From Gammaproteobacteria bacterium (lineage in GTDB: Bacteria; Pseudomonadota; Gammaproteobacteria; HK1), in NCBI GenBank assembly GCA_965204915.1, contig OZ242023.1, positions 1,138,840-1,202,839 of the forward strand: a stretch of DNA of 64,000 nt. The letters are read 5' to 3'. Positions 34,003-37,411 of this stretch are shown piece after piece (position 1 is the first letter of the stretch; every line of letters starts with the position of its first letter). The position numbers and the translations under genes are program-made. Below the pieces are notes generated by a model, which had not been told where the DNA came from, did no database searches, and was given only the letters and a program-made list of their open reading frames with translations.

Positions 34003-34517
34003 GCGGTTCAGTCCAGGACTTGCAGCGCGCGGTGCGTGATCTGTCCGCGTTCTTCAGCCGCTTCGACCTCTGGCTGACCCCGACCCTGGGACAGCCGCCG
34101 GTGGAGCTCGGCACCCTCGTCTACCGGGGCGGAGACCCCTTCGAGCTGCGCAGGCGCTCCGCGCGGTTCTCGCCCTATACCTGGATCGGCAACGCCAGCG
34201 GCCAGCCCGCGGTCTCCCTGCCGCTGCACTGGACGGCGTCGGGACTTCCGGTGGGGGTGCATTTCACGGCCCGCTGGGGCGAGGAGGCGACTGCGAGCGG
34301 ACCGTGGGTGGCCGAGACCCTCGGTCACGGCCCGCTGGGGCGAGGAGGCGACCCTCATCCGTCTGGCGGGGCAGCTCGAACGCGCCCGCCCGTGGGCGGA
34401 GCGGCGTCCCGGCGTCTGCGCGGCCTGAACCGCGCACCTGCCGCTTCGCCGGACGGACTTCGGGTCTCCCGGTGGGCGTGCGTTTCATGGTGGATTGCTA
34501 CAGTACGGCTCTCCATC
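34003..34517 (+). pseudogene. Diverged duplicate of the amidase 3' end plus downstream DNA (direct repeat of 29900-30346)
   Basis: Near-identical to 29900-30346 with scattered substitutions and an internal ~27-bp duplication around a ~30-bp insert that breaks the frame. Confidence 0.88.
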
Positions 34518-34814
34518 TACACGCAGAATCGGGCAGGATGAACCCGCCGGAGGACTCGATGGCGAGTCCCGTGCCGTCGCGCTCGGCCCACTGGCCCAAC
34601 TGGACGGCGATCCGCAGGTTGAGATGGCTGGTCCGAAATGACGCCGGCGCCGTGATCAGCAACTCTCCCTGTGTGGTCCGCTCGATCTCCAATTCGTCGT
34701 TGAGCCGCAGAATTCATGGAATCGATCGTCCGACAACGCGACCAGAGGACGGACGCGCAAGGGAAAGCACGCCAGGGGGTCCGGGGATTCGCGGCGCTTG
34801 ATCGCGGTGTTCAT
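34498..34814 (-). pseudogene. Uma2 (DUF820) endonuclease pseudogene, frameshifted and 3'-truncated
   Basis: LSDDRFHEFC / LNDELEIERTTQGELLITAP / SSGGFILPD; frameshift near 34705; ends at the repeat boundary. Confidence 0.75.
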
Positions 34815-34882
34815 GCCGTTACCACCCTCGCGTGGCGGAGTCCGTCGGCGGCGGGGTCGATGCAATCCGGCCACCGGGCCGG

Positions 34883-36265
34883 TCACTCCCCGTGCGCGTG
34901 ACGGAGCCGCTCGAGCAGCTCGCCGCCGGTGCGGCATTCCAGGATCCAGTCGCCCGCTTCGAGGAGATCCTCCGCATCCGCGACCTCCGCCAGAAGCTCC
35001 GAAACCTGCCGAGCCGTCTCGGCGCCGAAACGCCGCTCCGCCTGACGGCGCAGCAGCGCGCGCTCCTCCGCACGGCCCTGCGCGATACCCTGCTCCCGGC
35101 CCCGTTCGAGCACCCGCGCCTCCCACTCCATCGCTCGCGCATCCATCAACGTCTGCGCCTCTCCCCCTTCGCGTCCCGCATCCAACGTCCGCTCCAATTC
35201 CGCCAGCGCCTGCTCCCGACCCTGCTCCCGGCCCCGTTCGAGCACCCGCGCCTCCCACTCCATCGCCCGCGCATCCATCAACGTCTGCGCCTCTCCTCCT
35301 TCGTGTCCCGCATCCAACGTCCGCTCCAATTCCGCCAGCGCCTGCTCCCGACCCTGCTCCCGGCCCCGTTCGAGCACCCGCGCCTCCCACTCCATCGCCC
35401 GCGCATCCATCAACGTCGGCATCTCGCTCCCTCCTCGTCTCGCTTCCAGCACACGTTCCATCTCCGCCAGCGGCGGCAACCTCTCCCCGCCGTGCGGCGA
35501 CCGCGAATACCTCACCCGCGCATGATACCCCTCGCGCAACCCCTTCTCCTCCTCTCCCGCGTAACGCTCGAACGCCTTCCACAACAGCCCCGGCAACGCC
35601 TCCGCCGCACCCGTCTCCAGCCCAATCAGCGTGGTCAGCCGGTTGTCCGGCGGCAGCCGGTGAAGTTGGAGCCGGGTTCCGGGAAGCCGCCGACTTCCAT
35701 GAAGTCGGAGCCCGCTTCCCGCGGGTCCGCCGCCCCCTTCCGCCAACCCCCGCTCGTCGAGCACCACATGGGTGCGAAACCGGTTGCCCGTCCACCCCGG
35801 CCCCGACGGCCCCTCCACCACCGGCCCCGAACGCGCGTCCGACGCCGTCCACGGACGGTCCCCGTTGTACACCACCACCGCCAGCACCGGCGGCTCCCGT
35901 CCCTCCGCCTTCAGCGTCCCGTTGCCCCGCTGGTGGCGTTGCAGCAGGTAGACGTATTCGTGCATCCGCCACGCCATGTCGGGGTCCACGGCGGACTGGA
36001 ACTCGAACAGGACGAGCAGGTAGGGCCGCTCGCCGTTGGCCAGGGGCGGTTCGCCCAGGGGGCTGCCCTCACTGAACCCCACGCGCCAGAGCATGTCGCC
36101 GATCCGGTTGTACAGCTCGGGGCCGATGTACTCGGCGTTCATCCGGGCCAGGGTGGAGAAGTCCAGCTCGCCGTACCAGTCCGGCGCGACGTATCCGCGC
36201 AGGGTGTCTTCGACCATGCGGGGCTGGGAGAAGAGGATTTTGTAGGCGGGGTCGGAGGAGGCCAT
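34883..36265 (-). CDS. Rpn/YhgA-like (recombination-promoting nuclease family) PD-(D/E)XK protein with triplicated C-terminal module
   Basis: DPAYKILFSQPRMVEDTL, LDFSTL, GDMLWRV, LFEFQSAVDPDMAWRMHEY, VVYNG, and EQG-rich tail. Confidence 0.88.
   Translation of the reverse strand: MASSDPAYKILFSQPRMVEDTLRGYVAPDWYGELDFSTLARMNAEYIGPELYNRIGDMLWRVGFSEGSPLGEPPLANGERPYLLVLFEFQSAVDPDMAWRMHEYVYLLQRHQRGNGTLKAEGREPPVLAVVVYNGDRPWTASDARSGPVVEGPSGPGWTGNRFRTHVVLDERGLAEGGGGPAGSGLRLHGSRRLPGTRLQLHRLPPDNRLTTLIGLETGAAEALPGLLWKAFERYAGEEEKGLREGYHARVRYSRSPHGGERLPPLAEMERVLEARRGGSEMPTLMDARAMEWEARVLERGREQGREQALAELERTLDAGHEGGEAQTLMDARAMEWEARVLERGREQGREQALAELERTLDAGREGGEAQTLMDARAMEWEARVLERGREQGIAQGRAEERALLRRQAERRFGAETARQVSELLAEVADAEDLLEAGDWILECRTGGELLERLRHAHGE
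35050..35422 (-). repeat. 132-bp (44-aa) tandem repeat in the Rpn C-terminus
   Basis: cctgctcccggccccgttcgag recurs with a 132-bp period (near 35089, 35221, 35353); unit MDARAMEWEARVLERGREQG.. Confidence 0.92.
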
Positions 36266-36299
36266 GCAGGGCATGATGAGGGGCGCCGCGCCTTGGCCG

Positions 36300-37411
36300 A
36301 TAGCGACTTCCGCCTCGACACGTGCAAGACTACGGCTCGATTCGTGTGCGGTGTCGGACCGGAGCCGCCGTGCGAGATCGACCCGTTGAACCGTCCCGGC
36401 CTTTCCGAGGGCCGAGCCGCCCGGACCGTCCCGGAGTCCACCCGGACCGTCCCGGAATCCATCAGCGTCCTGGAAGCGCTCCGCATCGGCGCGGCCCGGG
36501 TGCTCGACATGCACCTCGACGACTTGCAGACCCTCGTCATCGGCCACGTCGAGCGCGCCGGGGTCGACGCCCTGCTGTGGGATCCGATGCCCGGCGGCTC
36601 CGGGCTGCTCGACCACCTGTGCGAGCGCTTCGGGGAGGTCGCGCAGGCGGCCCGCGAGGTCGTCGACGACTGCCCCTCGGTGTGCGCCTCATCCTGTATC
36701 GACTGCCTCCGGACCTTCCGCAACGCTTACTACCACCGCTACCTCGACCGCACGGCGGCCGCGAGCGCCTCGACGAACGGGGGCGGCTTCTCGCTCCCGG
36801 TCACGAGATCCCGCCGCGCCAGCCGGCCACCGCAACCGCCGCCCCGCGCACGGAGGCGATGCGAGTCCCGCCGTCTACCTCCCGCCGGACGCATTACCGC
36901 CGCCCCGCGCACGGAGGCGATGCCGGTCAACGACGCGGAGAGGAAGCTCCGCCACCTGCTGCTGGCCGCCGGGTTCGCGGAAGGTATCCGCGGCGAGCAG
37001 ATCCGCCTCGGCCGCGCCTTCGGCGCCGCCACCACGACCTCGGACGTGATCTACCGCACCGAGGACCACGAGCCGGACGAAGGGGTGTGCATCTACCCGG
37101 ACGGCTTGAGCCGGCATCTCCACGGCAATCCGGAGACCGCCGAGCGCGACCGCAGCATCCGTGCCTGGCTGCGAAGCCGCGGCTGCGAGGTGGTGGAGAT
37201 CCCCGCCCACGACCTCGACGACGAGGAAGCGATGGTCCGCCACTTCCGCCGGCTCGCGGGCTACCTGGGGATGCGGGAGCCGCGGAACCGGGTGAGCGAC
37301 GACCGTTCGTGGTTTCACGGCAGGGAGGAGCAGGGGGCGGCACAGAGCCATCGCCTTCCCGATCCGGCCGGACCGGGGCCGCGTGCACGCATCGATTCCA
37401 TTGCGAAATGA
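36300..37411 (+). pseudogene. C-terminal remnant of a DEAD/DEAH helicase: DUF1998 (4-Cys Zn) plus a DUF559/PD-(D/E)XK-like domain
   Basis: LWDPMPGGSGLL, CPSVCASSCIDCLRTFRNAYYHRYLDR, then IYPDGLSRHLHGN..ERDRSIRAWL; no helicase motifs upstream. Confidence 0.72.

What the first reader, a model, noticed from the sequence alone, without database searches (positions are those of the whole stretch)
34883..35436. Rpn gene with a strong internal RBS and a triplicated C-terminal module: possible nested antitoxins
Seen: GAGGAGGG (35436-35429) lies 6 nt before an in-frame ATG at 35422 (MPTLMDARAMEW). The 132-bp unit repeats, and later units carry their own purine runs (GAAGGAGGAGAG, GAAGGGGGAGAG) before in-frame TTG-ATG codons. 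Known: Rpn/YhgA proteins have been reported as anti-phage toxic nucleases inhibited by a small protein translated from an internal start in the variable C-terminus. Inference: this locus may make up to three nested small inhibitors, with repeat number tuning the dose.
Basis: partly seen in the sequence, partly recalled or inferred. Interest (0 to 1): 0.65.

Follow-up and report, generated by a model that had tools for sequence, protein, structure and literature searches.

The report
Rpn toxin gene with triplicated antitoxin-start module
This is an Rpn-type DNA-cutting defence gene that almost certainly also makes a shorter self-inhibitor from a strong internal start, and the 44-residue piece carrying that start has been copied three times, a large-scale version of the small repeat variation already known in this family.

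Summary
The minus-strand gene 36274-34883 (463 aa) is an Rpn/YhgA-family PD-(D/E)XK nuclease (Pfam PF04754).

First internal start:
- GAGGAGGG (35436-35429) lies 6 nt before the in-frame ATG at 35422.
- Its pairing with the 16S tail ranks in the top 0.34% of internal in-frame ATGs in this genome.
- It is built from rare codons, and paralogs down to about 42% identity keep it at synonymous sites.
- Variable 4-residue repeats (REQG/IAQG) follow about 20 residues later. This matches the published RpnS intragenic antitoxin.

The repeat:
- A 132-bp (44-aa) module is present three times (35470-35075).
- Close relatives carry 1, 2 or 3 copies, including at the same chromosomal locus.

In copies 2 and 3 the homologous start codon is GCG. 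The remaining TTG/ATG starts have unremarkable ribosome-binding scores (top 6-14%). Across homologs the first module keeps Met in 104 of 106 cases, and later modules in 37 of 70.

Most likely one 179-aa RpnS is made that contains all three modules and so matches RpnL. Nested products are more plausible in some homologs and in other paralogs of this genome, where every module keeps SD+ATG.

This is a new variant of a known kind, of moderate interest.

The parts
34883..36274 (-). rpnL coding sequence (463 aa, 51.8 kDa; ATG 36274, alternative ATG 36265; stop TGA 34885-34883). Its own start has essentially no Shine-Dalgarno (dG -2.5 / +1.5).
35837..36253 (-). N-terminal YhgA-like PD-(D/E)XK nuclease domain (residues 8-146 match PF04754). 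D60, E91 and Q93 are invariant in 103 homologs. The AF2 model is confident (pLDDT ~90) over residues 10-180.
35672..35726 (-). Length-variable, rare-codon, disordered linker (about residues 181-205) containing an imperfect hairpin (RNA -28.3 kcal/mol, z -2.1)
35429..35436 (-). Shine-Dalgarno GAGGAGGG of the internal start, encoded by rare codons CGA GGA GGG (joint expectation 0.0015 from genome codon use)
34883..35422 (-). Predicted rpnS (intragenic antitoxin) reading frame: ATG 35422 to the shared stop, 179 aa, 20.3 kDa, containing all three modules plus the C-terminal helical bundle
   Evidence: homology of the site
35339..35470 (-). Module 1 (44 aa, LAEMERVLEARRGGSE-M-PTLMDARAMEWEARVLERGREQGREQA): type-A head with intact SD+ATG
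35207..35338 (-). Module 2 has a type-B head (LAELERTLDAGHEGGE-A-QTLMD...). GCG (35290-35288) replaces the start codon. TTG is at 35281 and ATG at 35278. The last 79 nt are identical to module 1, and all 18 differences lie in the first 53 nt.
35075..35206 (-). Module 3 has a type-B head. GCG (35158-35156) replaces the start codon. TTG is at 35149 and ATG at 35146. It ends in the 4-aa repeats REQG IAQG (35098-35075), which vary in number among homologs.
34895..35077 (-). C-terminal helical domain shared by RpnL and RpnS: the end of a long helix plus three short helices (AF2 pLDDT 88 on its own). DUF4351 matches only below threshold.
36398..37408 (+). Flanking relic: C-terminal fragment of an MZB/DUF1998-type helicase (PF09369, E 2e-9), with no helicase core
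   Evidence: L032 gene table
34501..34692 (-). Flanking relic: Uma2-family endonuclease fragment (PF05685, 22.9 bits, below the cut-off), frame-disrupted

Best explanation
The locus is a gene-within-a-gene Rpn toxin-antitoxin/defence module of the RpnL/RpnS type.

- Full-length RpnL (463 aa) is a YhgA-like PD-(D/E)XK DNA endonuclease. It is translated from a start with essentially no Shine-Dalgarno.
- A strong internal site (GAGGAGGG-6 nt-ATG at 35422) directs translation of RpnS, which is the C-terminal 179 aa of the same frame. By analogy with E. coli RpnA/B/C/P2, RpnS pairs through the shared helical C-terminal region with RpnL and blocks its nuclease until infection or stress upsets the balance.
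- The 44-aa segment holding the start site and the first part of the RpnS pairing helix has been tandemly duplicated, giving three modules. Each module is predicted to be one long helix plus a Gly-rich loop.
- In this gene only the first module keeps a functional-looking start. Modules 2 and 3 have ATG changed to GCG. The main product is therefore one long RpnS carrying the same three modules as RpnL.
- Module number (1-4 in relatives) and the number of 4-aa REQG/IAQG repeats together act as a length/identity code. This code would keep each RpnS specific for its own RpnL among the seven Rpn paralogs of this genome, and it would diversify quickly by unequal recombination.

Shown: family membership, the anatomy, the strength and conservation of the start site, and the copy-number polymorphism. 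Inferred: translation of RpnS, inhibition, toxicity, the defence role and the specificity function of the modules.
For: Family:
- PF04754 matches residues 8-146 at E 3e-11, above the cut-off.
- D60/E91/Q93 are invariant in 103 homologs.
- The genome holds 7 PF04754 genes.

Internal start:
- The 16S tail ends in CACCUCCUUA.
- dG is -12.3, the top 0.34% of internal ATGs. GAGGAGGG occurs before only 9 of 17090 internal ATGs.
- It is encoded by CGA (4.8% of Arg codons), GGA (10.9% of Gly) and GGG (28.9% of Gly). The surrounding 12-codon windows are in the rarest ~2% of the genome.
- GGA GG[AG] ... ATG is kept in paralogs and orthologs down to ~42% identity. Where the peptide changes to K-G-A-R-E, the DNA is still AAAGGAG-N7-ATG.
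- G281, G282 and M285 are at least 90% conserved in 103 homologs.
- In L013 a split version has a TAA stop five codons before the homologous Met, followed by a free-standing 95-aa ORF that starts at that Met.
- RpnL's own start has dG -2.5, which fits an excess of antitoxin.

RpnS hallmark:
- 4-aa repeats (REQG/IAQG/ITQG...) begin about 20 residues after the Met. They differ among homologs by multiples of four residues, as described in PMC10400941.

Modules:
- There are three units.
- AF2 gives helices 288-322, 328-368 and 372-416, broken at the Gly-rich heads.

Polymorphism:
- At the same locus, with flanks 96-99% identical, L030 and L032 have 1 copy and L031 has 3.
- A contig in run X9 joins 35086 to 35351, skipping 264 bp.
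- Homologs have 1-4 modules with periods of 27-52 aa.

Single essential start:
- First modules keep Met in 104/106 cases and later modules in 37/70, p = 6e-14.
Against: - There is no expression data of any kind; no usable RNA or ribosome-profiling run was found.
- The C-terminal domain does not reach the DUF4351 threshold. Neither sequence-profile nor fold searches recover the solved RpnAS structure.
- The module helices have low model confidence (pLDDT ~50-55).
- No sigma-70-like internal promoter was found. This is weak evidence in a 68% GC genome.
- The immediate neighbours are gene fragments and metabolic genes rather than a clear defence island.
- Homolog counts are not phylogenetically independent.
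- In a second Rpn lineage, later modules keep Met in 60/62 cases. 'Only the first start matters' may therefore not be a family-wide rule.
Confidence: 0.72

Rival explanations
1. Nested antitoxins. All three modules initiate translation and give about 20-, 15- and 10-kDa C-terminal proteins. Module number would then raise or tune the antitoxin dose, or produce isoforms with different pairing properties.
For: - Units 2 and 3 keep purine-rich AAGGAGG-like runs and rare codons in their heads, with in-frame TTG ATG downstream.
- Homologs L056 and L058 have two identical full SD+ATG sites.
- Type-B heads in other homologs (L057) have GGGGGAG-5 nt-TTG.
- Paralogs at 1530621 and 1906529 of this genome have GGAGGG-7 nt-ATG in every one of their 3-4 modules.
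- That lineage keeps Met in 60/62 later modules even though the heads have diverged.
Against: - In this gene the homologous start codon is GCG in both later units.
- GGAGG-to-start spacing is 13 nt (TTG) or 16 nt (ATG).
- SD scores are in the top 6-14% only, which is ordinary for Glu/Gly-rich coding sequence.
- Later modules of this lineage lose Met in 47% of cases, against 2% for first modules.
- Published data say an RpnS whose repeat number differs from RpnL's fails to neutralise it. Truncated isoforms would therefore be expected to be poor antitoxins.
- Identical later starts in some homologs may simply be young duplicates.
Confidence: 0.17
2. No internal translation. The purine-rich run simply encodes a conserved Arg-Gly-Gly loop, and the repeats are a structural coiled-coil or spacer expansion of a single full-length protein.
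For: - Glu/Gly/Arg-rich peptides give SD-like DNA by themselves. For example, W-E-A yields GGGAGG before a GTG in every unit (dG -10.2).
- No expression data exist.
- DUF4351 and the RpnAS fold were not recovered.
Against: - The SD depends on rare synonymous codons. GGC, which makes up 54% of Gly codons, is never used at this site in any lineage examined.
- The nucleotide motif survives where the peptide changes (K-G-A-R-E).
- Spacing to the ATG is a constant 6-7 nt.
- The Met is kept in 98% of first modules.
- A free-standing ORF starts at the same Met in L013.
Confidence: 0.08
3. The triplication is an assembly artefact of a repeat, or the gene is a decaying pseudogene within a patch of gene fragments.
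For: - The gene sits between MZB and Uma2 fragments.
- Short-read contigs break inside the repeat.
Against: - The frame is open over 463 codons with invariant catalytic positions.
- A second, independent assembly has 3 units with different substitutions.
- Unit-2/3-specific words occur in several runs.
- Multi-module architecture is seen in 56 of 121 homologs and in 6 of the 7 paralogs of this genome.
Confidence: 0.02

Closest known systems
E. coli RpnA-E and plasmid RpnP2 long/short (RpnL/RpnS) gene-within-gene toxin-antitoxin defence systems (Zhong et al. 2023, PNAS, PMC10400941)
   Same: - YhgA-like PD-(D/E)XK N-terminal domain.
- In-frame internal SD+ATG in the variable C-terminal part.
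- Helical C-terminal domain shared by both products.
- 4-residue repeats (one hydrophobic residue plus charged/Gly residues) that begin about 20 residues after the internal Met and vary between strains.
- Several paralogs per genome.
- The long form has a weaker start than the short form.
   Different: - The unit of variation here also includes a 44-aa (132-bp) module that carries the start site itself, present in 1-4 copies.
- The predicted RpnS is 179 aa (20 kDa). E. coli RpnAS is 5.4 kDa.
- The C-terminal domain is too diverged for DUF4351 or the RpnAS structure to be detected.
- Nothing has been tested experimentally.
- The host is an uncultured, 68% GC gammaproteobacterium found in sponge metagenomes.
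Free-standing RpnSs / DUF4351 small genes such as ypaA (rpnESs) downstream of rpnE
   Same: The homologous Met can head an independent small ORF: L013 7247-7534, 95 aa, directly after a stop that ends the nuclease part.
   Different: In the window the small frame is nested inside the long one, not separate, and there is no second copy downstream.
TAEL 4-aa repeat variation in the EcoR124I/EcoR124II type I restriction specificity subunits (cited in PMC10400941)
   Same: Tandem in-frame repeats in a helical spacer change length and thereby change specificity.
   Different: Here the repeats are 44 aa rather than 4 aa. The presumed target is protein-protein pairing rather than DNA half-site spacing.
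Cas11d translated from an internal start within cas10d (type I-D CRISPR; cited in PMC10400941)
   Same: A small protein made from an internal in-frame start of a larger gene works together with the large product.
   Different: The role there is complementary, not inhibitory. The fold is unrelated and there are no repeats.

Membership tests
Rpn / YhgA-like recombination-promoting nuclease (PF04754, COG5464) | N-terminal YhgA-like PD-(D/E)XK domain detected by the family model above its curated cut-off | tested here: met
   PF04754 matches at 43.8 bits (cut-off 21), E 3e-11, residues 8-146. The genome search gives 44.2 bits at this locus. TIGR01784 matches only at 15.8 bits, below its cut-off.
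Rpn / YhgA-like recombination-promoting nuclease (PF04754, COG5464) | Acidic/catalytic core residues conserved (D ... E-x-Q/K arrangement; the motif is recalled from memory) | tested here: met
   D60, E91 and Q93 (LVLFEFQS) are invariant in 103 aligned homologs. The AF2 nuclease domain has pLDDT ~90. Weak fold hits go to restriction-type nucleases only.
Rpn / YhgA-like recombination-promoting nuclease (PF04754, COG5464) | DNA endonuclease activity and toxicity / SOS induction on expression | not testable with these tools
   Needs expression in a laboratory strain.
RpnS intragenic antitoxin (Zhong et al. 2023) | In-frame internal ribosome-binding site plus start codon in the variable C-terminal region | tested here: met
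   GAGGAGGG-6 nt-ATG at 35422. dG is -12.3, the top 0.34%. The site is conserved at synonymous positions, and Met is present in 104/106 first modules.
RpnS intragenic antitoxin (Zhong et al. 2023) | Hypervariable 4-amino-acid repeats beginning 8-20 residues after the initiating Met | tested here: met
   REQG/IAQG-type repeats start about 20 residues after the Met (position 21). There are 0-6 copies among homologs, and the indels are multiples of 4 residues.
RpnS intragenic antitoxin (Zhong et al. 2023) | Compact helical C-terminal domain (three-helix bundle with a long first helix; DUF4351/PF14261 in some species) | tested here: inconclusive
   AF2 gives a long helix plus three short helices at pLDDT 88. 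PF14261 matches only below threshold: none for the window protein, 4 of 21 relatives at E >= 0.013, and a related C-terminal region elsewhere in the genome (no PF04754 match at that place) at 17.7 bits. Neither the PDB profile search nor Foldseek finds the RpnAS structure.
RpnS intragenic antitoxin (Zhong et al. 2023) | The small protein is actually made and blocks the cognate long protein | not testable with these tools
   No RNA or ribosome-profiling data were usable.
RpnS intragenic antitoxin (Zhong et al. 2023) | Internal promoter giving a short transcript | tested here: inconclusive
   No sigma-70 consensus match in 34300-36800. The scan has low power in a 68% GC genome.
Anti-phage defence gene (context criterion) | Lies among defence or toxin-antitoxin genes | tested here: inconclusive
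   Here the flanks are an MZB helicase fragment, a Uma2 fragment and metabolic genes. Homologs sit next to PIN/PhdYeFM, HicAB and Uma2 and next to an N6 methyltransferase. No PADLOC model matches.

The most novel reading that the evidence does not exclude
In this clade of Rpn genes the piece that is tandemly amplified is the translation-initiation module itself (SD, start codon and the first pairing helix).

Some family members would then be true multi-start genes that make a ladder of nested RpnS isoforms. Candidates are homologs with two identical SD+ATG sites, and the 3- and 4-module paralogs of this genome in which every module has GGAGGG-7 nt-ATG.

Module number and start retention or loss would together form a fast-evolving code. 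That code would set both antitoxin stoichiometry and L/S pairing specificity, and it would insulate the seven paralogs from one another and from phage-encoded mimics.
Probability: 0.25. Interest if true: 0.7.

Novelty: new variant of a known kind. Interest (0 to 1): 0.5.

Why it matters
The RpnL/RpnS gene-within-a-gene principle is known. Its reported variation is limited to 4-residue repeats.

Here whole 27-52-residue modules that include the internal start are duplicated, lost and reshuffled. This is seen between strains at one chromosomal locus, in 56 of 121 homologs, and in 6 of the 7 paralogs of a single genome.

That provides a natural series of 1-, 2-, 3- and 4-module alleles, with the later starts either intact or destroyed. 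The series can test two things directly:
- how the length of the shared helix sets toxin-antitoxin pairing specificity;
- whether multiple internal starts are ever used.

It also extends the RpnS model to uncultured, high-GC bacteria found in sponge metagenomes. Finally, it shows that gene annotation there misses a likely 20-kDa nested product.

Tried and rejected
- DUF4351 membership of the C-terminus: no Pfam hit for the window protein at E <= 10. Relatives match only below threshold.
- PADLOC: no model matches.
- PDB by sequence: the full protein hits only designed armadillo repeats, a periodicity artefact. The C-terminal profile hits nothing meaningful.
- Foldseek against the PDB with the full model and with the C-terminal model: no match at E <= 0.001, and RpnAS was not recovered.
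- JGI metagenome scan: no relative found.
- RNA evidence: all runs holding the locus are of unknown kind and kept only as short contigs. Their depth profiles are confounded by paralogs, so nothing can be concluded about an internal transcript.
- Promoter/terminator consensus scan: nothing found.
- GTG codons 300/344/388, preceded by GGGAGG (dG -10.2), were considered as alternative starts in each unit. I rejected them because the motif is forced by the W-E-A codons and the Val is not conserved in paralogs.
- An assembly artefact was considered and rejected.
Full report
**What is there**

On the minus strand an open frame runs from ATG 36274 (second ATG at 36265) to TGA 34883 and encodes 463 aa.
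- Residues 8-146 match Pfam PF04754 (Transposase_31, YhgA-like) at E 3e-11, above the curated cut-off. The NCBIfam Rpn model matches only weakly, and no PADLOC model matches.
- In an alignment of 103 homologs, D60, E91 and Q93 (LVLFEFQS) are invariant.
- An AlphaFold2 model built from that alignment is confident over the nuclease domain (pLDDT ~90, residues 10-180). It shows a disordered linker (181-205), a helical middle part, three long helices (288-322, 328-368, 372-416) of low confidence, and a confident C-terminal helical bundle.
- The gene is therefore an Rpn-family PD-(D/E)XK nuclease gene. The genome (5.37 Mb, 68% GC, one contig) has seven of them.
- The closest named records are uncultured Gammaproteobacteria MAGs. 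The runs that hold the sequence are sponge and marine metagenomes.

**Checking the observation**

- Unit 1 reads ...GCG AGA CGA GGA GGG AGC GAG ATG CCG ACG TTG ATG.... GAGGAGGG is at 35436-35429 and the ATG at 35422.
- Tandem Repeats Finder gives a 132-bp period, 2.5 copies, 98% matches.
- In codon register there are three 44-aa units: 35470-35339, 35338-35207 and 35206-35075.
- Units 2 and 3 carry GAA GGA GGA GAG and GAA GGG GGA GAG, followed by GCG CAG ACG TTG ATG.

**Is the internal site more than chance?**

- The 16S rRNA 3' tail of this genome is ...GGAUCACCUCCUUA.
- I scored pairing of that tail with positions -18 to -4 for all internal in-frame starts in high-GC3 long ORFs of the genome. 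ATG 35422 scores -12.3 kcal/mol, the top 0.34% of 8473 internal ATGs.
- GAGGAGGG precedes only 9 of 17090 internal ATGs at 4-9 nt.
- The motif is made of rare codons: CGA (4.8% of Arg), GGA (10.9% of Gly) and GGG (28.9% of Gly), a joint expectation of 0.0015. The 12-codon windows around it are among the rarest ~2% in the genome.
- By contrast, RpnL's own start has no Shine-Dalgarno (dG -2.5 and +1.5).

**Conservation**

- I extracted the homologous site from 30-odd distinct loci. The two Gly codons are always GGA GGG, GGA GGA or GGG GGA and never GGC, which is the majority Gly codon. The ATG follows at constant spacing.
- In the most distant group (42-45% identity) the peptide has changed to K-G-A-R-E, but the DNA is still AAA GGA GCA AGA GAG ATG, which keeps AAAGGAG.
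- G281, G282 and M285 are at least 90% conserved in 103 homologs.
- In locus L013 a related rpn gene is split. A TAA stop ends the nuclease part five codons before the homologous Met. A free-standing 95-aa ORF with its own GGAGAGGAAGGAG run starts exactly at that Met.

**Comparison with the literature**

Zhong et al. 2023 (PMC10400941) showed the following:
- RpnS binds and blocks the toxic full-length nuclease.
- RpnS carries hypervariable 4-residue repeats beginning 8-20 residues after its Met.
- An RpnS with a different repeat number no longer neutralises RpnL.
- One system protects against T-even phages.

Here, REQG/IAQG/ITQG-type 4-residue repeats begin about 20 residues after Met 285. 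They differ among homologs by multiples of four residues. The site at 35422 therefore matches the published RpnS start in position, in signal and in what follows it.

**The repeat**

- Unit 1 and unit 2 differ at 18 nucleotides. All 18 lie in the first 53 nt, the 'head': LAEMERVLEARRGGSEMP versus LAELERTLDAGHEGGEAQ. The remaining 79 nt are identical.
- So the gene is head A + core, head B + core, head B + core.
- In head B the codon homologous to the start is GCG. GGAGG then lies 13 nt from the next TTG and 16 nt from the next ATG.
- SD scores for those starts are -9.3 and -8.4 (TTG, top 6-8%) and -6.4 (ATG, top 14%).
- Among 121 retrieved homologs, 50 have one module, 44 have two, 10 have three and 2 have four. 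Periods are 27, 31, 35, 40, 44, 48 and 52 aa.
- The first module has Met at the start position in 104 of 106 proteins. Later modules have Met in only 37 of 70, and otherwise Ala, Pro or Thr (Fisher p = 6e-14). The sequences are not independent.
- This asymmetry says that a start upstream of all modules is maintained, while later starts are dispensable in this lineage.

**Copy number is polymorphic**

- Three independent contigs cover the same chromosomal locus, with the same neighbours and flanks 96-99% identical. They carry 1 (L030), 1 (L032) and 3 (L031) modules.
- P0003, at 90% identity, has two modules with the same head B.
- In one public run a 509-bp contig joins 35086 to 35351, skipping exactly 264 bp. 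That run shows essentially no depth (0, up to 2.25 at the edge) over the unit-2/3-specific part, 35099-35326.
- L031 has its own substitutions (Cys for His/Arg in head B). The triplication is therefore not an assembly echo.

**Beyond this gene**

- Six of the seven Rpn paralogs of this genome are multi-module.
- Two of them belong to a diverged 'MTLEER' lineage and have 3 and 4 modules. Each of those modules has GGAGGG-7 nt-ATG.
- In 120 homologs of that lineage, 45 have 2-4 modules with periods of 39-59 aa. Later modules keep Met in 60 of 62 cases.
- Two close homologs of the window gene (L056, L058) have two identical full SD+ATG sites.

**Most likely mechanism**

- RpnL (52 kDa) is poorly initiated.
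- RpnS (179 aa, 20 kDa, from ATG 35422) is strongly initiated and shares all three modules and the C-terminal bundle with RpnL. The two pair, and the nuclease is held inactive.
- Module number and 4-aa repeat number set the length of the shared helix region, and hence cognate specificity among paralogs. Unequal recombination between the near-identical cores changes that length quickly.
- Translation, inhibition, toxicity and defence are all inferred by homology. None is shown here.

**Weak points**

- The C-terminal domain does not reach the DUF4351 threshold.
- Neither sequence nor fold searches recover the solved RpnAS structure.
- The module helices are modelled with low confidence.
- No promoter-like site was found.
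- The direct neighbours are an MZB helicase fragment, a Uma2 fragment and metabolic genes rather than a defence island. Homologs do sit next to PIN/Phd, HicAB and a methyltransferase.
- No expression data could be obtained.

**Verdict**

This is a member of the known RpnL/RpnS kind with a new form of variation: tandem amplification of a 44-aa module that contains the internal start. No such large-module variation is mentioned in the main text of Zhong et al. 2023 or turned up in two searches of the held library; the supplement and the commentary were not read. Interest is moderate.

Noticed in passing
window 35672-35726 (minus strand), residues ~181-205: The linker between the nuclease domain and the helical part is disordered in the model, made of very rare codons (windows in the ~1% tail) and variable in length among homologs (RLHGSRRLPGTRLQLHRLPPDN versus RLHPLPPDN and others). 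It contains an imperfect hairpin (-28.3 kcal/mol, z -2.1). It could be a small in-frame palindromic insertion.
   Followed up: partly
window 35539 (minus strand), codon 246: A second strong SD-like run, GGAGAGGAGGAGAAGGGG, precedes an in-frame TTG (dG -12.0, top 0.5% for TTG). It lies inside the nearly invariant peptide GEEEKGLREGYHARV. It may be just the Glu-rich coding sequence, or a further upstream internal start.
   Followed up: no
genome C1:1905716-1907119 and 1529937-1531211 (loci L005/L011, L004/L009): Two diverged Rpn paralogs have 4 and 3 tandem modules of 47-51 aa (MTLEERVAEWPKQWFREGREQG...). Each module has GGAGGG 7 nt before an in-frame ATG. Module number varies from 1 to 4 among 120 homologs.
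   Followed up: partly
L013 7247-9154 (minus strand; OY282353.1, uncultured Gammaproteobacteria MAG): A split rpn. The nuclease ORF ends at a TAA five codons before the conserved internal Met. A free-standing 95-aa RpnS-like ORF with its own SD follows immediately. It resembles the published separate rpnSs genes.
   Followed up: partly
G040:C1:693496-701678 (loci L034, L042, L048, L049 and others): An array of at least four or five rpn genes and fragments lies within about 8 kb in a genome of another genus of the same family. It recalls the tandem rpn arrays described in the literature.
   Followed up: no
window 36398-37408 (+) and 34501-34814 (-): The rpn gene is flanked by an orphan MZB/DUF1998 helicase C-terminal fragment, preceded by a 21-bp tandem duplication at 36420-36461, and by a frame-disrupted Uma2 endonuclease fragment. 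It looks like a decayed patch in which only rpn is intact.
   Followed up: partly
homologs P0046, P0047, P0050: Some database homologs run into a different reading frame after the first module, with tails like 'PGAGAGGVGADVG...'. These are frameshifted alleles or sequencing errors inside the repeat. The same alternative frame is open in the window as ORF 34656-35972.
   Followed up: no
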